Part shown: positions 8,433 to 20,694 of the stretch, one piece after another | Layout: every line of letters starts with the position of its first letter | How positions within the stretch are numbered: the stretch's first letter is position 1 | Virus record (IMG/VR): IMGVR_UViG_3300029955_000001 | Reading direction: 5' to 3' (one strand) | DNA length: 64,000 nt | From: a virus | Taxonomy: Duplodnaviria; Caudoviricetes | The notes under the pieces: generated by a model | Databases searched by the model: none | What the model saw: the letters and a program-made list of their open reading frames with translations, nothing else | Told to the model about the DNA's origin: nothing | Made by a program: the position numbers and the translations under genes

Positions 8433-8485
8433 GTTTAAATTCCTCGTTCAGTGAACACATAGCATTACTGTTGTGTATTTTAAAA

Positions 8486-9019
8486 CTATGTTAATAATCG
8501 TTCTCGGTAGTTTTGGATAGGTGATTCCGCGTCATCGACGCTGCTCCATGTAACCCCTCGTAGCGCCCTAGAGATGTTTGCCTGAGAAGTGTTGTATTTA
8601 GTTTCTAATTCAGCTAATGTCATCTCCATATCCATTTTCTTAATCCGACGCATTTCAATTACTGTCTCAGCATTTAAAACTGTCGTACTACGATTTTTAC
8701 AAGACGATTTTATTGTAGACAAACAACAGTTATTAGGACTGAAATTCTTTGTTACATCTAAACGTATAACTTTAAAAGGAACATTAATTAATTCTGGTTG
8801 GTAAGATAACTCCCTATCTACCCATTTAATGAAATTACATATTCCTTCAGGATTTGTATCTATCCAAACTTTTGCTACTGTAATCCCTTTACCACCGTAA
8901 CTAGGATAATTTTTATTCGAACTATCGTAACAACGCTGGATAAAACTAAGCCATCTAGCGTAATACTTATGTTTTTTCATACCGTGCTTAACTGCGCCGA
9001 GATGATTCATTTTGTGCAC
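8486..9019 (-). CDS. Degenerate HNH homing-endonuclease-like protein with a C-terminal HTH
   Basis: HGMKKHKYYARWLSFIQRCY..NYPSYGGKGITV..W is the typical N-terminus; the catalytic DRIDN..NCRW..N segment has decayed to IRLDV..NCCL; C-terminal LAELETKYNTSQANISRALRGVTW. Confidence 0.7.
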   Translation of the reverse strand: MHKMNHLGAVKHGMKKHKYYARWLSFIQRCYDSSNKNYPSYGGKGITVAKVWIDTNPEGICNFIKWVDRELSYQPELINVPFKVIRLDVTKNFSPNNCCLSTIKSSCKNRSTTVLNAETVIEMRRIKKMDMEMTLAELETKYNTSQANISRALRGVTWSSVDDAESPIQNYRERLLT

Positions 9020-9078
9020 TTTTTAAGAGTGAAAAAATAAAAAAATGTTAAACGGTGGTAGTTTAACATTTTTTCTAG

Positions 9079-9396
9079 TTATTCTTCGCTATCGGAAAAC
9101 GACTGTATAATAATCTCAACTTGTTCAGACAGATTTTTAACTGTCATATCGAGATTTATTTGTTCTCCATCAATTACGATACCGAACTCTTCTTCTAGTC
9201 GTTCTATAAGCGACGCTTCGTCAATATAATCCATTCCAAGGTTATCGCCCAAAACAGATTGAGAATTAACATCATCGGGCGGTGAGTTTGTTATATCGAT
9301 AATAATATTTTTTATTTTATCAAGTACAGTCATTTCGATAGCGTCTTCTATTTCACTTCTGTTCTCAACTACAATATCTAACTCTTCATCAGCCAT
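9079..9396 (-). CDS. ACP-like protein lacking the phosphopantetheine serine (LGMDYID)
   Basis: ACP pattern V.DKIK.II..LGMD-Y-ID...L.ERLEEEFGI.I...MTVK.L; codon TAT at 9226-9228. Confidence 0.8.
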   Translation of the reverse strand: MADEELDIVVENRSEIEDAIEMTVLDKIKNIIIDITNSPPDDVNSQSVLGDNLGMDYIDEASLIERLEEEFGIVIDGEQINLDMTVKNLSEQVEIIIQSFSDSEE

Positions 9397-9417
9397 TATT
9401 ACTCTCCTTTTTTTACT

Positions 9418-9873
9418 TTACGTGGCATCTTTATCAAGCGTAAGGTTAACTTGCATGCGTGGTTGACCTGCTGGGCGTTGTTGTTTTAAATCTTCAATGC
9501 AATACAAAGAGTCTGGGTCTAACATCCCCATTATGTTTGTCCGTTTGAAAGCAGGTACTTTAATCACATACCAACATAGTGGACACCATGCTAGATTTAT
9601 ACCTACTTGACTCAGACGATCTGTTACGAGTCCGTAGTATTTACGAATAACCGGTTTTTGCATTGCCTCAGTGAATTTCAGACTAATTTCTGGTCCTAAA
9701 ATGTGAGCCATAGCATCACGGTCAACTGGTATAAAATATCCATACGGATTACCAGACCCTACTACTTTTGGCGTATCGTTCCGATTGCAAATAGCAACAA
9801 TCATATCTGTTGCCTTAGTTACGCTATATGGGAACGAATGCTTTTCTTCATTGACAAAATTATACACAGTCAT
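9418..9873 (-). CDS. Hypothetical protein
   Basis: 151-aa ORF with AAGGAG SD. Confidence 0.7.
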   Translation of the reverse strand: MTVYNFVNEEKHSFPYSVTKATDMIVAICNRNDTPKVVGSGNPYGYFIPVDRDAMAHILGPEISLKFTEAMQKPVIRKYYGLVTDRLSQVGINLAWCPLCWYVIKVPAFKRTNIMGMLDPDSLYCIEDLKQQRPAGQPRMQVNLTLDKDAT

Positions 9874-14282: not shown

Positions 14283-15050
14283 TTAAATGTTATTAATTCT
14301 TGTTTGTTCAATATCTTTATTAATACTGTCAATAAATGCTGCGCGTATACTTGGATCAGCGCTTGCTGTATTTATTTTATTGAGAACTTGTTGTGCGTCG
14401 TCATCAATGGTTTGACTTTGTAATATTTCCCCATGAAAAACAATTTCGTAATTCAACGGGCTAGTTAAATTCATACCCATATCTCTAACTGCTTCGCTGC
14501 TTGGAAAACGTTTTGGAAACACATCCTTAACTAACCATGCACTTTGAATTACAGTGTGTGTTGGGTCAGGTTCAAATAAGATAACATCGAACGTGTAATT
14601 TAACTTACGAGCTTTGTCGTAATCTATAAGTTGTGCTATAGACATTTTACAAGCCGCAATAGCCCGTTCATTGCAAATTTGCTGATAGTGTCTACCCCAT
14701 ACTTGGAAAAAAGCATCTACTGGTTTTCCATACTTTTCACCAATGAGAATTTTTAATTCTTTTTTATCTGGAATAAACTGATGATTTAAAGTTGTTGTGT
14801 ATCCGTTATTAATACCGAATATTTTTAATGGATGAAGTTCGAATAACGCACGAGCTGTGGCATTAAAAGTTTTATCTTCTGAACGAATATCGGCAGATTC
14901 TACATATTCAGATTCGCCAAAGCGTGGTGGGTTATTTATAAACCGTGTTACAACAGCGCAAACATTACGTTTAAAATGCGCTCGGTTACTAACCCAGGTA
15001 TCTAATTTATCAATGTTGTCGAAATCTTTAGGATCATTATTAATGTTCAT
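14283..15050 (-). CDS. phiKZ-type tail-tube-like paralog (start moved to ATG 15050)
   Basis: EKYGKPV..FFQVW, LFEPDPTHTVIQSAWLVKDVFPK, A Q.VLNKIN...ADPSIRAAFI resemble phiKZ gp30-type tube motifs (recalled, not searched). Confidence 0.55.
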   Translation of the reverse strand: MNINNDPKDFDNIDKLDTWVSNRAHFKRNVCAVVTRFINNPPRFGESEYVESADIRSEDKTFNATARALFELHPLKIFGINNGYTTTLNHQFIPDKKELKILIGEKYGKPVDAFFQVWGRHYQQICNERAIAACKMSIAQLIDYDKARKLNYTFDVILFEPDPTHTVIQSAWLVKDVFPKRFPSSEAVRDMGMNLTSPLNYEIVFHGEILQSQTIDDDAQQVLNKINTASADPSIRAAFIDSINKDIEQTRINNI

Positions 15051-15051
15051 G

Positions 15052-16098
15052 CTATTCTTTCGCCAATGGATTGTTGGGGACAAATACTTCATCTACCCAT
15101 TTTTCAATTTGTTTCTCTACATCGCCTATAGATTGCATAGCGTCAATTTCAACCATGCGGTGCGATTTAACTCGTAAGCGCGCTAAATAACCGGCGTGTA
15201 CCCGTTCTTTAAAAGCAGTTTCTTCCGTATCAAAATGATTAATGTCCGTATTACGAGCAGTTAACCGTTTAATGCTTTCTTCTAAGGTAATATTAAAAAA
15301 TAGCGTATAATCTGGTTCAAAAATATCACATACTAATTTTTCCAGTGTTGACACAACATCATGTAACCCACGACCATATCCTTGATACGCGCTAGTGCTA
15401 TCCGTAAAACGGTCAGAAATAACTATTTTACCATCTGCGATGGCTGGTTTTATCAACGTATCTAAATGATCAGATCTAGCCGCAGCAAAAAGTAAAGCTT
15501 CTGTTTTAGGACACATCTTTTCACTGAGAAGTAGACCTCTTATTTTTTCAGCTAACGGACTACCACCAGGTTCACGTGTCTGGATAACATCGTATCCTTT
15601 TTCTCTAAGGTAATTTACTAAGAACTTTGTCATTGTAGATTTACCAGCGCCATCAATTCCTTCCACGCTGACCATCCGACCCTTCGACATAATTTTTGAT
15701 TCTTGTTTATGTGTAAAACCGAAAGCACATATACAATCTTCAGCCATTGTCATCAGCGGGAAACAACCGAAGTAAACAACATTACCATATTCAATATCGA
15801 TTGAATAGAAACTCGGGTCACCATTAATTAAACCAATTGATTTAGATTTTGTATTTGGGTCCATTATCAGTGTTCTGATCCACTTAGATAATAGCGCATT
15901 AAAAACATGAAAACGTAATCCATCTACTTTTATATTAATGCGCCTGCAATCAGAAACACTTTCTTCGATACTTAAAAGATAAAATGGCATACTAATCATT
16001 TCTATTTGTACAGATAGTAATTCTTGATCTTCGTCTGATTTATCAAAAGCACTAGGGTAACGTTTAATTTTAACTACGTTCATGATTGGATCTTTCAA
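15052..16098 (-). CDS. tmk: Thymidylate kinase with a ~135-aa N-terminal extension
   Basis: VSVEGIDGAGKST P-loop, TREPGG, LLFAAARSDH, ISDRFTDSTSAYQG, PDYTLFF. Confidence 0.93.
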   Translation of the reverse strand: MKDPIMNVVKIKRYPSAFDKSDEDQELLSVQIEMISMPFYLLSIEESVSDCRRINIKVDGLRFHVFNALLSKWIRTLIMDPNTKSKSIGLINGDPSFYSIDIEYGNVVYFGCFPLMTMAEDCICAFGFTHKQESKIMSKGRMVSVEGIDGAGKSTMTKFLVNYLREKGYDVIQTREPGGSPLAEKIRGLLLSEKMCPKTEALLFAAARSDHLDTLIKPAIADGKIVISDRFTDSTSAYQGYGRGLHDVVSTLEKLVCDIFEPDYTLFFNITLEESIKRLTARNTDINHFDTEETAFKERVHAGYLARLRVKSHRMVEIDAMQSIGDVEKQIEKWVDEVFVPNNPLAKE

Positions 16099-17096: not shown

Positions 17097-17219
17097 TTAT
17101 TTTAAAATCACATGTTCAGTTTGATTACTAGATGCTTCAATAGGGGCCATAAAACCACCTATAGAAAGCAAAGCAAACAAACCAAGTAATTTCAACAAAT
17201 CCAAAATCTTTGTTTTCAT
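17097..17219 (-). CDS. Small hydrophobic peptide (40 aa, MKTKILDLLKLLGLFALLSIGGFMAPIEA...)
   Basis: Manual translation; CGGAGAGTATA-ATG; lies just downstream of the repeat promoter at 17251. Confidence 0.5.
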   Translation of the reverse strand: MKTKILDLLKLLGLFALLSIGGFMAPIEASSNQTEHVILK

Positions 17220-17290: not shown

Positions 17291-17333
17291 ACTAAAACAT
17301 ATAGCGATTTGATATTTTTTGAACAATCGGGCA

Positions 17334-17367
17334 TAAAACCAGAGCGATTCAGTAAGCTCTGGTTTTA
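17334..17367 (-). terminator. Terminator of the porin operon
   Basis: TAAAACCAGAGC...GCTCTGGTTTTA stem; minus-strand tail TTTTATGCCCG. Confidence 0.75.
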
Positions 17368-17377
17368 TATTTTTTAA

Positions 17378-18499
17378 TCAAAAACGATACGTCGTTGCGA
17401 ATACAGTTGTAGTCCATGACGCGTTATTTGCGTTATAGTTTTCCCACTGTAGCCCATGTCCGCGATGTTCCTCTAACGAAAATGTCCATCTGCTATAATC
17501 GTACGTTACGCCTAATACAGTGTCCTTTTCACTACCCGTAGTATTGCCGTTTCCAGTACTCTCTGAAATATATGTGTAAATTTCATCTGTCCAATTATAA
17601 CCTGCTAAAAAATAAAAAGTATTATAACTAGATACATTTTTAAATGGTCCTGTTAAGCCAGCTTCGTAATAGCTATCGTGACGCAATTCCGTTTCAAGAG
17701 AATAACCGTTTTTACTATAAGAAATGCCAAAGCTGGTGCTTATGTATTTAACATGTGATTCGTTATCGATTATTTGAATTGCAATAGGATTTAAAACATT
17801 TGGGGGTACTGCCCCTCCAGTAAAAACATTCTGGCTATTTGGGTTTTCTAAGGTAACACCACCGCGCCATATACTACGTGCTAAAATAAAACCAAATGAA
17901 TCAGTTTCATAATTCAATGAGTAATCATAGTTCCCTTTTTCTCCTACTTGTCTATAGTCGTCTGTGCATGGCGGACCATTGATCTCTAACTGTACGTGAC
18001 AAGCGTCTTCTATATGTGTCAAACCATAATCAAAACGCGTAAGTAGTACACCATTACCCACTTTGCTTTTAACGACTACGTTTATACCGTTGATGGCTGT
18101 AAATGTTTCGTTATCGACCATGCGCCTATCGTATAAACCTAAAGGTAACATTGCTACTCCGGCAGTAGCAGGAGAATCAGTGACGTTATTATAAAAGGTA
18201 GTTAATCTGATAAATTTTCCTAATTGAATAGTAACATCGTTATCGGCATTCAACTCGAAAGACTTCTCTATTACAGCACGACGTACTACTTGATTATACG
18301 GGGCTGATATCTGAGCACGAAATGCATACTCGCCATAACTAACATCCGTGTTAACAGCTAACTCAGATTTATTTGGATAAAAATTTCTATTACTAAACGT
18401 CGTTCCGTCAATAAAACCTGAGAAAGTCGTGTTCAGCTCTTGTGCTGTGCATTGTGTCACAAATAATGCACTAATCAGCAATATGCAAAACTTTAACAT
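17378..18499 (-). CDS. Outer-membrane beta-barrel (porin-like) protein (start moved to ATG 18499)
   Basis: GGAGG SD; signal peptide MLKFCILLISALFVTQCTA; alternating amphipathic strands; QLGKF/R..F motif; C-terminal beta-signal ...FATTYRF. Confidence 0.8.
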   Translation of the reverse strand: MLKFCILLISALFVTQCTAQELNTTFSGFIDGTTFSNRNFYPNKSELAVNTDVSYGEYAFRAQISAPYNQVVRRAVIEKSFELNADNDVTIQLGKFIRLTTFYNNVTDSPATAGVAMLPLGLYDRRMVDNETFTAINGINVVVKSKVGNGVLLTRFDYGLTHIEDACHVQLEINGPPCTDDYRQVGEKGNYDYSLNYETDSFGFILARSIWRGGVTLENPNSQNVFTGGAVPPNVLNPIAIQIIDNESHVKYISTSFGISYSKNGYSLETELRHDSYYEAGLTGPFKNVSSYNTFYFLAGYNWTDEIYTYISESTGNGNTTGSEKDTVLGVTYDYSRWTFSLEEHRGHGLQWENYNANNASWTTTVFATTYRF

Positions 18500-18899
18500 C
18501 GTTTCCTCCAAAATTAATAATAACATTGTCGCTATCTATATACCCAATCGCACTTCTAGTAGAACTCACACGACGAAGCATTTCATCCGTCGTTTTTACA
18601 TAGCGAACTTCACTTCCCAAACCAGAATTAACCATTTTATTCCATTTCTTATTGTATTCCTCCACTGACATTCCTAATATATCACGTACGAAATGGCGAA
18701 ATAAATAAGTATCTTCCGTCATCTGAAAGAGAACTACTTTATCGCCATTTGGCCATCTGTTATATCGCATCAGATAAATATTTCTTATATCAGTCGTACT
18801 TAGCTTACCTGAATTAACATCCACATTAATAATAACTGATGTGTCGCCGAATGTTAATCCAGTAAAGAAATATAAAAATATCAGAATTAATTTTTTCAT
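18471..18899 (-). CDS. Small periplasmic-binding-protein-like protein (type often annotated as phosphate ABC substrate-binding)
   Basis: Signal peptide; VIIN...LS..DIRNIYL.R...WPNG..V...F....LG.....Y...W......G.....V....EM...V......AIGYID pattern. Confidence 0.8.
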   Translation of the reverse strand: MKKLILIFLYFFTGLTFGDTSVIINVDVNSGKLSTTDIRNIYLMRYNRWPNGDKVVLFQMTEDTYLFRHFVRDILGMSVEEYNKKWNKMVNSGLGSEVRYVKTTDEMLRRVSSTRSAIGYIDSDNVIINFGGNDVKVLHIAD

Positions 18900-19348
18900 C
18901 GTCTTTTTGCCTGTTGCTCGCTTCTTGACTGAGTGTCATCAAGCTGTCGCTGAAGATCAATTGTGATGCGTTTCATTGCATCTACCTTATCAGACATATC
19001 TCTAATTTTATCTACATCAGGCTTCATTGCTGTGGTTGTTTTTTCAATTAAATTAACCCGATCTACGAATGCATCGAATTTTTCAATCGAATGTTCAAGA
19101 TAATAACCAATACCACTGCCGACAATAGCCCATATAACGATGGCTGTTTTAATTAAAGTTTTATTACGGGTTTCGCTAGCATGTACTGTTTCATGCACAC
19201 GCTCATATCGCTGTGCTAGATCATCGTACTTACCGCCAATCGTTTTAATGGCACTATTATTAGATTGACAAATTATTGCTACTGTAGCGTAGAATTGCTG
19301 TCTGTCGATCAAATCATCTGATCTTGGGGCTAACACTGGTTCATTCAT
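18896..19348 (-). CDS. Single-pass inner-membrane coiled-coil protein
   Basis: TM helix LIKTAIVIWAIVGSGIGYYL flanked by heptad-rich segments; ATGA-coupled to the PBP gene. Confidence 0.7.
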   Translation of the reverse strand: MNEPVLAPRSDDLIDRQQFYATVAIICQSNNSAIKTIGGKYDDLAQRYERVHETVHASETRNKTLIKTAIVIWAIVGSGIGYYLEHSIEKFDAFVDRVNLIEKTTTAMKPDVDKIRDMSDKVDAMKRITIDLQRQLDDTQSRSEQQAKRR

Positions 19349-19453: not shown

Positions 19454-19479
19454 ACCAGAGTAGAATATTCTACTCTGGT
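19454..19479 (-). terminator. Terminator hairpin
   Basis: ACCAGAGTAGA-atat-TCTACTCTGGT; minus-strand tail TTTTATGCTG. Confidence 0.75.
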
Positions 19480-19484
19480 AATGG

Positions 19485-20000
19485 TTAAACTGATGCCTTA
19501 AGTGCTAGCAAAGGTGATTCTGTCAGATGATTCAAACTAGAAAATAAATCAAGTCCAGAAGCTTTTAGACATCCTCCAGATAGTTCGTAACAAAACCAGT
19601 TTGTATCATCGTTCCAATTACGACTGGGGTCGATAGCTAAGCCTAATACACCGATGTAGTCATACCCTTTCCCTAACTGAGCTTCTAAAAACGCCCTACC
19701 AGCTGCTTGATTAGGCACAACGAAATCAACTGTATCAACTATAGTAGAACCAGATAGCGCAACTGATCGAATTGATTTACGCACACCATAACCAGGCAAT
19801 GCTTCGTATAACACATCCCCAAAATCAATCAACACATGTGACGATATCCCCATAACGAAACGAGAACGTGGTAAAGCATACCGAACAACTAATGACGGAA
19901 TACTCCAATCAGTTTTAGTAAATACCAAACGGATAATGTTTGAAGGTATTTGCGAGGAATCGGTCATTATATCTCCTATTAATTTAGAACTTAATTTCAA
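19485..20000 (-). CDS. Permuted papain-like amidase (YaeF/YiiX, C92 family)
   Basis: SHVLI (His) in the N-half, LYEA, GKGYDY, WFCYEL (Cys) in the C-half: circularly permuted NlpC/P60 order. Confidence 0.85.
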   Translation of the reverse strand: MKLSSKLIGDIMTDSSQIPSNIIRLVFTKTDWSIPSLVVRYALPRSRFVMGISSHVLIDFGDVLYEALPGYGVRKSIRSVALSGSTIVDTVDFVVPNQAAGRAFLEAQLGKGYDYIGVLGLAIDPSRNWNDDTNWFCYELSGGCLKASGLDLFSSLNHLTESPLLALKASV

Positions 20001-20694
20001 TTCCTAACGTTGGCGATACAGCTTTTGACAAACCTTTCAAACCATCAACTTCTGAAGTGTGTGATTGCTCTATCTTTAAGAATAAAGAAATTGGTTCGTT
20101 CGCTATTTTGTAAGGTAACTTGTAGCCAATTGTAGCACCTAAACCATATTGTGTTCTTGCGTCAGCGTTAAGCTGTGAAACAATGGGTCCTACCGCACTA
20201 GTGTTGCCGGGGCCGTACCAATCGTAATTAATTGATTCCAAATGATACGTTGTTGCAGTTAACTGTATTTCACCCCACCAGTTACCATAATTCTGCCGTA
20301 CTGCAAGAAAGATATTCGATACAGTCGCCTGCGTTTGCATATGCGACAAAGGCCCACATGGCCCATTACAGTGCGATGCCGAATTAGGATTATAGTTGGC
20401 ATCGGAGTTAAGAATCATCGCGTCGGCTGTCATTCTACCGACCCAATCAAAACCAACCCCAAACTGTGTGCCGTATGTATTTATATCTGTGTAAAGACCA
20501 AACGATACAGACGGCGAAATTAGATGTTCGTTATTAGGAAAACCATTCTGTTTCCAATTTCCATTTGCACTAGGCGTAAACTTTTCTAAACCAAAGTCCA
20601 CCACTATTTCACTGGCGATAGCGACATCGCAACAACTGAGCATTAAGAAAATAATAAACAAACGTAAATACTTGGTAAATTGTTGAGAATGCAT
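19984..20694 (-). CDS. Second outer-membrane beta-barrel protein (small, roughly 8-stranded)
   Basis: Signal peptide; amphipathic strands (SVSFGLYT, QFGVGFDWVG, YGLGATIGYK); C-terminal LGIEIKF beta-signal. Confidence 0.7.
   Translation of the reverse strand: MHSQQFTKYLRLFIIFLMLSCCDVAIASEIVVDFGLEKFTPSANGNWKQNGFPNNEHLISPSVSFGLYTDINTYGTQFGVGFDWVGRMTADAMILNSDANYNPNSASHCNGPCGPLSHMQTQATVSNIFLAVRQNYGNWWGEIQLTATTYHLESINYDWYGPGNTSAVGPIVSQLNADARTQYGLGATIGYKLPYKIANEPISLFLKIEQSHTSEVDGLKGLSKAVSPTLGIEIKF

What the first reader, a model, noticed from the sequence alone, without database searches (positions are those of the whole stretch)
17378..19348. Three-gene trans-envelope operon: IM coiled-coil + periplasmic binding protein + OM porin
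The three genes are translationally coupled (ATGA and 29-nt overlaps) and bounded by their own terminators. In bacteria, a small PBP-like gene beside a porin-like gene is a recurring pair, often near chemoreceptor or signalling genes. Here the third partner is a single-pass coiled-coil protein with no signalling domain. A lytic jumbo phage encoding a full OM barrel with a BAM beta-signal (YRF) is unusual. Possible roles are nutrient (e.g. phosphate) scavenging, sensing or blocking of superinfecting phage, or decoying the host's equivalent signalling module. This is the best candidate for an undescribed system in the window.
Basis: partly seen in the sequence, partly recalled or inferred. Interest (0 to 1): 0.75.

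Follow-up and report, generated by a model that had tools for sequence, protein, structure and literature searches.

The report
Phage porin, periplasmic cap, membrane tether
An uncultivated phiKZ-like jumbo phage from peat, and at least ten other uncultivated phages, carry three genes that appear to build a bridge across the host cell envelope (an outer-membrane pore, a small protein predicted to cap the pore from inside, and an inner-membrane tether); neither this phage module nor its widespread bacterial ancestor has a known function.

Summary
Three coupled minus-strand genes (4-nt and 29-nt overlaps), flanked by two strong hairpin terminators, encode three proteins:
- a single-pass inner-membrane coiled-coil protein (150 aa);
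- a secreted protein (142 aa) built like one lobe of the phosphate-binding protein PstS, here called the half-PBP;
- a 16-stranded porin (373 aa, AF2 pLDDT 92, C-terminal YRF).

Complex prediction puts the half-PBP on the periplasmic mouth of the porin (ipSAE 0.87; best control 0.00).

- **Conservation.** The module recurs in 11 distinct uncultivated phage loci, including T4-like, DGR-bearing and jumbo phages. It usually sits beside tail-fibre genes and sometimes beside lysis genes. Ten of the 11 loci have the coiled-coil partner.
- **Isolates.** No relative was found in 50,697 deposited phage genomes.
- **Origin.** The PBP is clearly related, and the porin distantly, to a common unnamed bacterial porin/half-PBP pair. 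That pair was found in 66 of 300 sampled genomes, next to GGDEF-EAL sensors, Che genes or HAE3 RND transporters.
- **Function.** Unknown. I favour a capped pore tethered to the inner membrane that relays an envelope cue, possibly to time lysis. Phosphate scavenging is weakened because the PstS anion loop is not kept. A spanin role is weakened because canonical spanins coexist with the module.

Apart from first-reader notes on this window, the scan had no note of this module.

The parts
18896..19348 (-). cc150: bitopic inner-membrane protein. About 63 aa are cytoplasmic and carry the conserved motifs ERxQFYA and ETRNKTLI. The TM span is at about 64-84, followed by a periplasmic helical or coiled-coil tail of about 66 aa.
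   Evidence: ORF and AGGAG Shine-Dalgarno sequence. Hydrophobicity and flanking charges. Homologues in L001, L004 and L007. Architectural equivalents in L005, L029, L031, L032, L003 and L012. Only weak coiled-coil-type family hits.
18471..18899 (-). PBP142: secreted protein built like one lobe of PstS (the half-PBP). The signal peptide is probably cleaved after G18. It is predicted to cap the periplasmic mouth of the porin.
   Evidence: AF2 pLDDT 85. Foldseek top 20 are PstS chains covering about half of each. Profile against PDB PstS gives E 4e-4, or 2e-6 for the bacterial relatives. Atlas TM 0.85 to small PBP_like_2 proteins. Complex ipSAE 0.87 against 0.00 for controls.
17378..18499 (-). 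por373: outer-membrane 16-stranded porin. It has a signal peptide, a 37-residue L3-like loop (98-134) that is the most conserved stretch of the family, a conserved Cys167/Cys178 pair in an outer loop, and a C-terminal YRF.
   Evidence: AF2 pLDDT 92.3, pTM 0.86. Foldseek PDB and AFDB matches are porins, E 5e-12 and 9e-13. Family of 95 clusters. Conservation. GGAGG before the ATG at 18499.
19454..19479 (-). Intrinsic terminator that closes the upstream operon. The trio therefore starts with its own transcript or read-through control.
   Evidence: dG -17.3, z -5.8. Shares the 13-mer CTCTGGTTTTATG with the downstream terminator.
17332..17369 (-). Intrinsic terminator directly after the porin stop codon.
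   Evidence: (14-bp stem, dG -18.7, z -6.7).

Best explanation
The three genes encode a three-tier complex across the envelope. The 373-aa protein is inserted in the host outer membrane as a 16-stranded porin. The secreted 142-aa half-PBP docks into the periplasmic mouth of that barrel. It touches nearly all periplasmic turns, the lumen-facing residues of strands 1-5 and the constriction loop, so it caps or gates the pore. The 150-aa bitopic protein anchors in the inner membrane and reaches towards the cap with its periplasmic coiled coil.

The PBP, and more distantly the porin, belong to a phage-specific branch of a widespread, unnamed bacterial porin/half-PBP pair. In bacteria that pair is coupled to varied inner-membrane partners: dCache-GGDEF-EAL sensors, Che proteins and HAE3 RND transporters.

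Status of each step:
- Shown: gene structure, folds, homology, conservation and synteny.
- Predicted with controls: PBP-porin binding.
- Inferred: that the coiled-coil protein binds the cap, and the function.

My preferred function, at about 0.3, is a gated pore or sensor that passes an extracellular or envelope cue to the inner membrane late in infection. The most likely output is the timing of lysis, acting on holin or lysis proteins in the membrane.
For: - Folds: porin; half-PBP.
- Binding: ipSAE 0.66/0.87/0.87 in three runs, and 0.00 in all three controls.
- Interface conservation: the interface holds family-conserved porin residues N50, Q63, R74 and the L3 segment 99-114, and the conserved PBP loop RWPDG 48-52 and G93.
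- Coupling: translational coupling and flanking terminators.
- Conservation: PBP and barrel occur together in 10 of 11 distinct phage loci, and a TM-plus-coiled-coil partner in 10 of 11, although gene order varies between cc-PBP-porin and PBP-porin-cc.
- Bacterial parent: the small PBP was found in 66 of 300 sampled genomes, with a porin adjacent in 8 of 10 loci.
- Bacterial inner-membrane neighbours.
- Phylogeny: phage and bacterial PBPs split at 100/100 support.
- Link to lysis and signalling: in L007 the trio directly follows endolysin, a 2-TM protein and an Rz-like spanin. A C92-type amidase precedes it in the window, L001 and L004. In L032 a stand-alone receiver domain follows it.
- Expression: RNA-run contigs cover parts of all three genes.
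Against: - No experiment exists, and the host is unknown.
- The complex score is a model's own confidence, and it used my unpaired alignments.
- The periplasmic coiled coil (about 66 aa, roughly 10 nm) plus the cap may not span a full periplasm.
- L001/L002 keep the coiled-coil protein and the PBP without a barrel. L011 has the PBP and barrel without the coiled-coil protein. The three parts are therefore not strictly obligate.
- The lysis-timing output rests only on gene neighbourhood in some loci. In most loci the nearest neighbours are tail-fibre genes.
- The cytoplasmic part of the tether varies from about 5 to 170 aa, which argues against one conserved cytoplasmic target.
Confidence: 0.6

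Rival explanations
1. Superinfection exclusion or receptor management. The phage installs its own capped porin, or caps a host porin from inside, to replace or neutralise the receptor that its tail fibres use. This would protect the infected cell and the progeny, as T5 Llp, Cor or the PA-2 Lc porin do.
For: The module lies directly after tail-fibre genes in the window, the ENA contig, L001, L004, L005/6, L012 and L031. That is the classic position of Llp/Cor/Lom-type genes (my own knowledge). L001 keeps the cap without a barrel, as if it acted on a host porin. L004 has two barrel paralogs.
Against: A cap on the periplasmic side does not hide the surface loops that a phage binds. The conserved parts of the barrel are the inner L3 loop and the periplasmic face, not the outer loops. 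Accessory genes often accumulate next to tail-fibre genes regardless of function.
Confidence: 0.2
2. Nutrient (phosphate or anion) uptake aid. An anion-selective porin plus a PstS-like binder would raise phosphate supply for replicating a 288-kb genome in phosphorus-poor peat.
For: PstS is the only solved family that the cap resembles. Atlas neighbours of the barrel include Porin_O_P-annotated clusters. The phage comes from peat and permafrost.
Against: Only one PstS lobe is present. The PstS anion loop (SGT with Arg) aligns to non-conserved residues in the phage proteins: EDT, ESS, KES, FSH. A tightly docked cap would hinder flux. The third partner is not a transporter. Bacterial relatives sit with signalling or RND genes, not pst genes.
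Confidence: 0.08
3. Accessory device for disrupting the outer membrane (a three-part spanin analogue). An inner-membrane coiled coil linked through the cap to an outer-membrane barrel would help destroy or open the outer membrane at lysis.
For: The TM-plus-coiled-coil part weakly matches Rz-like spanin profiles: phrog_739 at E 0.007 for cc150 and 0.0068 for the 88-aa version in L003. The trio is adjacent to lysis genes in L007, and a possible NlpC/P60-type lysin lies upstream in three loci.
Against: L004 and L007 carry their own canonical i-spanin and o-spanin genes. The cap has no lipobox. The weak spanin hits fit any TM-plus-coiled-coil protein. The bacterial relatives are not lysis genes.
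Confidence: 0.08
4. The three proteins are independent accessory genes that merely travel together, and no complex forms.
For: Some loci lack one of the three parts. The complex is only predicted.
Against: The genes are translationally coupled with conserved 4-nt and 29-nt overlaps in distant phages. The same pairing occurs in bacteria. The complex score is 0.87 against 0.00 for controls, with conserved residues at the interface.
Confidence: 0.04

Closest known systems
Unnamed bacterial porin / small PBP-like pair (annotated 'Porin_4' plus 'phosphate ABC transporter substrate-binding protein', about 140 aa) in Pseudomonadota, for example in Massilia sp. TWR1-2-2
   Same: The half-PBP is homologous: the phage PBP profile hits bacterial copies at 1e-19 to 1e-28 in a small database. 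The partner porins are distantly homologous: hhalign probability 85%, HMM E 5e-6. The genes are adjacent and often overlap. An inner-membrane protein is encoded alongside.
   Different: Phage copies form a separate clade with 100/100 support. The phage inner-membrane partner is a bitopic coiled coil rather than a dCache-GGDEF-EAL protein, Che proteins or an HAE3 RND pump. I found no paper or curated family for the bacterial pair either.
Phage-encoded porins and outer-membrane proteins of temperate coliphages (PA-2 Lc and DLP12 NmpC, both OmpC-like; lambda Lom)
   Same: A phage gene for a host outer-membrane barrel. Lom also lies among tail genes (my own knowledge).
   Different: Identity to the top Foldseek PDB matches (OmpF/OmpC-type and other general porins) is only 8-16%, and there is no Pfam porin hit. 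The phages here are virulent-type, uncultivated jumbo and T4-like phages. The barrel comes with a dedicated periplasmic cap and an inner-membrane tether, which Lc, NmpC and Lom lack.
Two-protein plug or cap arrangements of outer-membrane channels: LptD-LptE (plug in barrel), CsgG-CsgE (periplasmic cap), and TonB with the plug of TonB-dependent transporters
   Same: A separate or mobile domain occludes an outer-membrane barrel from the periplasmic side. In the TonB case an N-in bitopic inner-membrane protein reaches across to it. The resemblance is in how it may work.
   Different: There is no sequence or fold relationship. The barrel has 16 strands, against 26, 36 or 22. The cap is a PstS-type lobe. 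No ExbBD-like motor gene is present in the module.
Trans-envelope signalling triads such as YfiB-YfiR-YfiN and FecA-FecR-FecI
   Same: An outer-membrane component, a periplasmic or bitopic relay and an inner-membrane or cytoplasmic output. The bacterial relatives of this module sit next to GGDEF-EAL proteins, as YfiR and YfiB do.
   Different: No homology. The phage tether has no known output domain.
Two-component spanins (Rz/Rz1) and the T4 holin T / antiholin RI lysis-timing pair
   Same: A bitopic N-in protein with a periplasmic helical domain plus a secreted periplasmic partner. The position is late and next to lysis or tail-fibre genes.
   Different: No lipoprotein is present. Profile similarity is only weak and generic (E about 0.007). 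Canonical spanins coexist with the module in L004 and L007. No T or RI family match was found.

Membership tests
General 16-stranded bacterial porins (OmpF/OmpC/Omp32/OmpT-Vc type; Pfam clan with Porin_1 and Porin_4) | Sec signal peptide and C-terminal aromatic beta-signal | tested here: met
   The N-terminal hydrophobic segment 1-19 ends in TA|QE. The C-terminus is YRF, and F373 is nearly invariant in 58 relatives.
General 16-stranded bacterial porins (OmpF/OmpC/Omp32/OmpT-Vc type; Pfam clan with Porin_1 and Porin_4) | 16 antiparallel strands with a long third loop that folds into the barrel | tested here: met
   AF2 pLDDT 92.3 with 16 strands. A 37-residue loop between strands 5 and 6 carries short helices. 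Foldseek top 50 are all porins, TM about 0.55. Whether the loop lies inside the lumen is inferred from its predicted contact with the cap.
General 16-stranded bacterial porins (OmpF/OmpC/Omp32/OmpT-Vc type; Pfam clan with Porin_1 and Porin_4) | Sequence match to a curated porin family above threshold | tested here: not met
   No Pfam, NCBIfam or PHROG porin hit. There is only a weak profile link to Porin_4-type bacterial partners.
General 16-stranded bacterial porins (OmpF/OmpC/Omp32/OmpT-Vc type; Pfam clan with Porin_1 and Porin_4) | Trimer formation and an open diffusion channel | not tested
   No homo-oligomer prediction or electrophysiology was done.
PstS / PBP_like_2 phosphate-binding proteins | Two-lobed Venus-flytrap fold | tested here: not met
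   The mature protein is about 124 aa. It aligns to PstS residues of about 82-187 of 252, which is one lobe.
PstS / PBP_like_2 phosphate-binding proteins | Anion-binding loop (Arg ... Ser-Gly-Thr) conserved | tested here: not met
   PstS SREDGSGTRDAF aligns to the variable phage residues (Q)MTEDTYLFRHF. Other phage members have ESS, KES, EDN, FSH or ASN there. Bacterial relatives keep SGA..RD.F but not the Arg.
PstS / PBP_like_2 phosphate-binding proteins | Family profile match above the curated cut-off | tested here: not met
   There is no PBP_like_2 hit for the phage protein. Bacterial relatives score 19-20 bits against a cut-off of 27. TIGR02136 scores 20-30 bits against a cut-off of 207.
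Two-component spanin (Rz/Rz1 type) | Outer-membrane lipoprotein partner with a lipobox Cys | tested here: not met
   Neither the PBP nor the barrel has a lipobox. The PBP signal peptide ends LTFG|D.
Two-component spanin (Rz/Rz1 type) | Type II inner-membrane protein with an N-terminal TM span and a periplasmic coiled coil | tested here: inconclusive
   The TM span is at 64-84, not at the N-terminus. The 88-89-aa versions in L003 and L012 do fit. Hits to phrog_739 are weak, at E 0.007.
Two-component spanin (Rz/Rz1 type) | It is the phage's only outer-membrane disruption system | tested here: not met
   L004 and L007 carry separate Rz-like and Rz1-like genes: phrog_89, phrog_456 and phrog_1403.
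Bacterial porin / half-PBP pair (unnamed) | Homologous small PBP encoded next to a porin gene, often overlapping it | tested here: met
   The PBP-then-porin order with a 4-nt overlap is also seen in L026.
Bacterial porin / half-PBP pair (unnamed) | Falls within the bacterial clade | tested here: not met
   Phage PBPs form their own clade at 100/100 support. The phage barrel family of 95 clusters did not reach the bacterial partner porins at E <= 1e-3. Not all 'phage' rows of the tree had their context checked.

The most novel reading that the evidence does not exclude
Phages of several lineages carry their own trans-envelope sensory pathway. A phage-made outer-membrane pore admits an outside cue, such as a small molecule, a product of lysed neighbours or a sign of superinfection. 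A half-PBP docked in the pore detects it. A bitopic coiled-coil protein relays the state to the inner membrane to delay or trigger lysis. This would be a Gram-negative, envelope-level counterpart of T4 lysis inhibition or arbitrium-type decision making. It would also imply that the unnamed bacterial porin/half-PBP pair is a general 'outer-membrane input module' for c-di-GMP, chemosensory and RND systems.
Probability: 0.25. Interest if true: 0.9.

Novelty: categorically new. Interest (0 to 1): 0.78.

Why it matters
If the prediction holds, this is a new outer-membrane architecture: a porin gated by a separate protein shaped like one lobe of a binding protein. It would be present both in many Pseudomonadota and, as a distinct clade with an inner-membrane tether, in diverse uncultivated phages.

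- **For phage biology:** virulent-type phages would invest late in infection in building a dedicated channel complex in the host outer membrane. That points to an unrecognised step, such as sensing, lysis timing, exclusion or permeability control.
- **For bacterial physiology:** it flags a common, uncurated gene pair that may feed signals or substrates from the outer membrane to c-di-GMP enzymes, chemosensory kinases and RND pumps.

All three proteins are small and testable in E. coli by expression, pull-down, bilayer recording and cryo-EM.

Tried and rejected
**Family and similarity searches**
- Pfam, PHROGs and NCBIfam gave no hit above threshold for any of the three proteins.
- Megablast of the region found nothing in 50,697 INPHARED phage records. 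tblastn of the window porin, the window PBP, an 806-aa head protein and two divergent family porins also found nothing there.
- The word-based homologue search reached only one or two relatives. The exhaustive profile search was needed.
With narrow alignments it gave one viral locus and one bacterial locus.
- No whole genome is held for the window.

**Literature**
- Five searches found no paper on a phage porin/PBP module or on the bacterial pair.

**Readings rejected or weakened**
- Virion component: rejected, because of the signal peptides, the beta-signal and the absence of structural-protein matches.
- Canonical spanin: rejected, because there is no lipobox and spanins coexist with the module.
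- Functional PstS: rejected, because there is one lobe and the anion loop is lost.
- Holin T / RI homology: no match.

**Limits of what was done**
- The Atlas search for cc150 returned only generic helical neighbours.
- A promoter scan found nothing convincing upstream of the trio. phiKZ-like phages use their own polymerases, so that scan does not apply well.
Full report
**1. What is in the sequence**

On the minus strand lie three ORFs:
- 18896-19348, 150 aa;
- 18471-18899, 142 aa;
- a third that ends at 17378.

The longest reading of the third ORF starts at 18526. Genes 1 and 2 overlap by ATGA, and gene 1 has an AGGAG Shine-Dalgarno sequence.

A hairpin terminator lies just upstream at 19454-19479 (dG -17.3 kcal/mol, z -5.8). 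Another follows the last stop codon at 17332-17369 (dG -18.7, z -6.7). None of 200 shuffles folded as well. Both hairpins end in the same 13-mer, CTCTGGTTTTATG, which has 3 matches in the window against 0.11 expected.

**2. The phage**

Three large ORFs of the window match phiKZ-like internal head proteins, and another matches head-tail joining domains. The proteins occur on a contig of 287,693 bp. The window is thus part of a phiKZ-like jumbo phage.

It has no near relative among 50,697 deposited phage genomes, not even for an 806-aa head protein. Near-identical DNA occurs in peat and permafrost metagenomes from many studies.

Contigs from four peat metatranscriptome runs match parts of all three genes at 100% identity. 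They leave the terminator and intergenic stretches uncovered in all four runs. That pattern fits transcription in situ, but these are contigs, and DNA carry-over cannot be excluded.

**3. The three proteins**

*Barrel (373 aa).* With an alignment of 58 relatives, AlphaFold2 gives a 16-stranded barrel at mean pLDDT 92.3 and pTM 0.86, with a 37-residue loop between strands 5 and 6. Foldseek finds only porins:
- V. cholerae OmpT, OmpF, OmpC/OmpK36 and Omp32 in the PDB (E 5e-12 and weaker, TM about 0.55);
- 'Porin' entries in AlphaFold DB.

No curated family reaches threshold. It has a signal peptide and ends in YRF, and the last F is nearly invariant. Close relatives keep a Cys167/Cys178 pair in an outer loop. 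The most conserved stretch of the family is the L3-like loop, FYNxVTDxPxxxGxAxLPxGxYxRRM.

*Half-PBP (142 aa).* It has a signal peptide without a lipobox. AF2 gives pLDDT 85. The top 20 Foldseek PDB matches are all phosphate-binding proteins (PstS), each covering about half of the target (E 7e-3 and weaker, TM about 0.5 by the query). Profile searches against PDB sequences give PstS at E 4e-4, and at 2e-6 for the bacterial relatives, aligned to the central lobe. The ESM Atlas model matches clusters of about 140-aa 'PBP domain' proteins at TM 0.85, and so does AlphaFold DB.

It is therefore one lobe of a PstS-type binding protein. The PstS anion loop (SREDGSGTRDAF) aligns to residues that differ from phage to phage: EDT, ESS, KES, EDN, FSH, ASN. 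Phosphate binding is probably lost.

*Tether (150 aa).* It has one hydrophobic span at about 64-84. Basic residues precede it (ETRNKTLIK) and acidic residues follow it, so the N-terminus is inside. The C-terminal 66 residues are helical and periplasmic. Only weak, coiled-coil-type profile hits appear, including Rz-like spanin at E 0.007.

**4. Do they bind?**

Complex prediction of the mature barrel with the mature half-PBP scored ipSAE 0.66, 0.87 and 0.87 in three runs. All three controls scored 0.00. The tool's pass mark was reached by 58 of 80 solved complexes and 2 of 110 mismatched pairs in its calibration. Those counts hold only roughly here, because my own alignments were used.

The predicted contacts on the barrel are:
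- nearly all periplasmic turns (56-57, 85, 149-151, 198-200, 302-306, 334-337, 372);
- alternate, lumen-facing residues of strands 1-5;
- the L3 loop (99-114).

They include the family-conserved N50, Q63 and R74. On the PBP the contacts include the conserved RWPDG loop (48-52), the degenerate anion loop (62-63) and the 78-100 helix and loop with invariant G93.

I read this as the half-PBP capping the periplasmic mouth and reaching up to the constriction loop. This is a prediction that passed its controls, not a demonstration. I know of no solved complex of this kind, so a pass 'from memory' is unlikely.

**5. Conservation in phages**

An exhaustive profile search found a compact barrel family of 95 clusters, 62 of them at E <= 1e-30, with most full-length members about 340-390 aa. 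Every context I opened is a phage contig, and the module recurs in each. The distinct loci are listed below.

| Locus | Coiled-coil protein (aa) | PBP (aa) | Barrel (aa) | Context |
|---|---|---|---|---|
| ENA contig | 143 | 141 | 358 | after collagen-like fibre genes |
| L004 | 149 | 150 | 376, plus a second barrel paralog | after Peptidase_S74 and DUF4376 fibre genes |
| L005/L006 | 286 | 145 | 374 | T4-like; between fibre genes and terminase, sheath, portal |
| L007 | 155 | 141 | 353 | directly after a lysis cassette |
| L029/L030 | 207 | 163 | 362 | beside a diversity-generating retroelement |
| L031 | 211 | 147 | 368 | downstream of a Laminin_G_3 fibre-like gene |
| L032 | 224 | 142 | 359 | followed by a stand-alone receiver domain |
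| L003 and L012/L013 | 88-89, placed after the barrel | 142 | 389 / 399 | L012 lies on a 257-kb contig |
| L011 | none; a 76-aa two-TM protein instead | 142 | 382 | nucleotide-metabolism region |
| L001/L002 (closest relative of the window phage) | 144 | 142 | none | same synteny as the window |

- Counting the window, PBP and barrel occur together in 10 of 11 distinct loci.
- A TM-plus-coiled-coil partner is present in 10 of 11 loci.
- The 4-nt and 29-nt overlaps recur in distant members.
- The conserved part of the tether is the TM span plus the periplasmic coiled coil.
- The cytoplasmic part of the tether ranges from about 5 to 170 aa.
- Three divergent family barrels have no relative in the deposited phage collection.

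**6. Neighbours in phages**

Tail-fibre-type genes precede the module in the window (a 1219-aa protein), the ENA contig, L001, L004, L005/6, L012 and L031.

Lysis genes are close in some loci:
- In L007 the trio directly follows an endolysin (phrog_465, E 1e-27), a two-TM protein and an Rz-like spanin.
- In L004 an Rz-like and an Rz1-like gene lie 2 kb downstream.
- A C92-type (YaeF/YiiX-like) amidase sits immediately upstream in the window, L001 (65% identity) and L004 (42%). The Pfam hit for the L004 copy is weak, at E 0.019.

Because L004 and L007 have canonical spanins, the trio is not a spanin substitute.

**7. The bacterial parent**

The most distant PBP hit (P0118) lies in a bacterial contig with this gene order: CheA-like, MCP-signal, CheX-like, receiver, porin, PBP, porin, PBP.

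A relative in Massilia sp. TWR1-2-2 lies between a Porin_4 gene and a dCache-PAS-GGDEF-EAL gene. In 300 genomes sampled from that organism's class, 66 carry the small PBP, with up to 10 copies per genome. One of these genomes (G040) is flagged unpublished. No specific claim rests on it beyond the tally.

In 8 of 10 fetched loci a porin gene is directly adjacent. Wider views show:
- porin, PBP, then dCache-GGDEF-EAL (L028);
- GGDEF-EAL genes nearby (L027);
- an HAE3/MMPL-type RND transporter followed by alternating PBP and porin genes with 4-nt overlaps, which is the phage gene order (L025, L026).

No Pfam or NCBIfam model names this pair, and five literature searches found nothing on it. The phage PBP profile recognises the bacterial copies (1e-19 to 1e-28 in a small database). 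In a tree, phage and bacterial copies separate with 100/100 support. One caveat applies: some rows labelled 'phage' were not checked for context. The barrels are only distantly related.

**8. How it most likely works**

*Shown:* the genes, the folds, the export signals, the conservation and the homology to the bacterial pair.

*Predicted with controls:* the half-PBP docks on the periplasmic mouth of the barrel.

*Inferred:*
- The bitopic protein holds the cap from the inner-membrane side. This rests on coupling and on co-occurrence in 10 of 11 loci despite changes in gene order.
- The assembly is a capped or gated pore tied to the inner membrane.

Bacterial relatives feed into signalling proteins or RND pumps. 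The phage version sits among late genes, next to lysis genes in some phages and once next to a receiver domain. I therefore favour, at about 0.3, a relay of an outside or envelope cue to the inner membrane that affects lysis timing.

The rivals, with my estimates:
- receptor management or superinfection exclusion, about 0.2; supported by the tail-fibre position, weakened because the cap is on the inside;
- phosphate or anion uptake, about 0.08; weakened by the lost anion loop, the single lobe and the non-pst neighbours;
- an accessory outer-membrane disruption device, about 0.08; weakened by coexisting spanins and the absence of a lipobox;
- unrelated co-travelling genes, about 0.04.

**9. Comparison and novelty**

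The module works somewhat like known plug or cap arrangements (LptD-LptE, CsgG-CsgE, TonB with its receptor plug) and like trans-envelope signalling triads (YfiBNR, FecARI). It is homologous to none of them.

It fails the membership tests for PstS, for curated porin families by sequence, and for spanins (see the table of tests). Known phage porins (Lc, NmpC) and Lom are single proteins of temperate coliphages, without a cap or a tether.

I found no description of this module in phages, nor of its bacterial parent. I therefore rate it as categorically new, with the caveat that the function is unknown and that the literature library is not exhaustive.

**10. Limits**

- The host is unknown and there are no experimental data.
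- One complex prediction rests on unpaired alignments.
- The tether-cap contact is untested.
- Neighbourhood statistics come from 11 phage loci and about 14 bacterial loci, not from a full census.

Noticed in passing
window 19984-20694 (-) and 19485-20000 (-): Directly upstream, in a separate operon closed by the terminator at 19454-19479, lie two genes. One is a second signal-peptide protein that ends in IKF (236 aa, a probable small outer-membrane barrel). The other is a C92 (YaeF/YiiX)-like permuted papain amidase without a signal peptide. The amidase is conserved immediately upstream of the coiled-coil gene in L001 (65% identity) and L004 (42%). It may be a lysin or an envelope-editing enzyme linked to the module. 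The 236-aa barrel has no homologue in the other loci by tblastn.
   Followed up: partly
window 17097-17219 (-): A 40-aa peptide lies just after the trio's terminator, behind a good Shine-Dalgarno sequence. It has a hydrophobic N-terminal half (MKTKILDLLKLLGLFALLSIGGFMAPIEASSNQTEHVILK). An equivalent peptide sits at the same place in L001 (10549-10713). Small TM proteins also follow the barrel in L029, L003 and L012.
   Followed up: partly
L032:7495-7851: A stand-alone CheY-like receiver domain (118 aa, Pfam Response_reg) is encoded directly after the barrel gene on a 48-kb phage contig. The bacterial locus L008 also has a single-domain receiver next to its porin/PBP pairs.
   Followed up: no
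L025 and L026 (bacterial genomes G231, G012): Arrays of two to four alternating small-PBP and porin genes lie behind an HAE3/MMPL-type RND transporter gene. Single genomes carry up to 10 copies of the small PBP. This bacterial system appears to be unnamed and uncharacterised.
   Followed up: partly
L004:7001-8131 and about 8475-9467: Two tandem paralogs of the barrel sit behind a single PBP gene. The second is called as only 249 aa, although tblastn aligns it to residues 34-373 of the window barrel. It may have a frameshift or a missed start.
   Followed up: no
window 14283-16098 (-): The thymidylate kinase ORF (348 aa) has an N-terminal extension of about 130 aa with a weak tail-tube-like match (Phage_TTP_14). 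The neighbouring 269-aa ORF matches the same family at E 4e-19. Both lie in a nucleotide-metabolism region.
   Followed up: no
L029:63-1721: One phage contig that carries the module also carries a diversity-generating retroelement (bAvd plus reverse transcriptase) a few genes upstream. The target gene was not identified.
   Followed up: no
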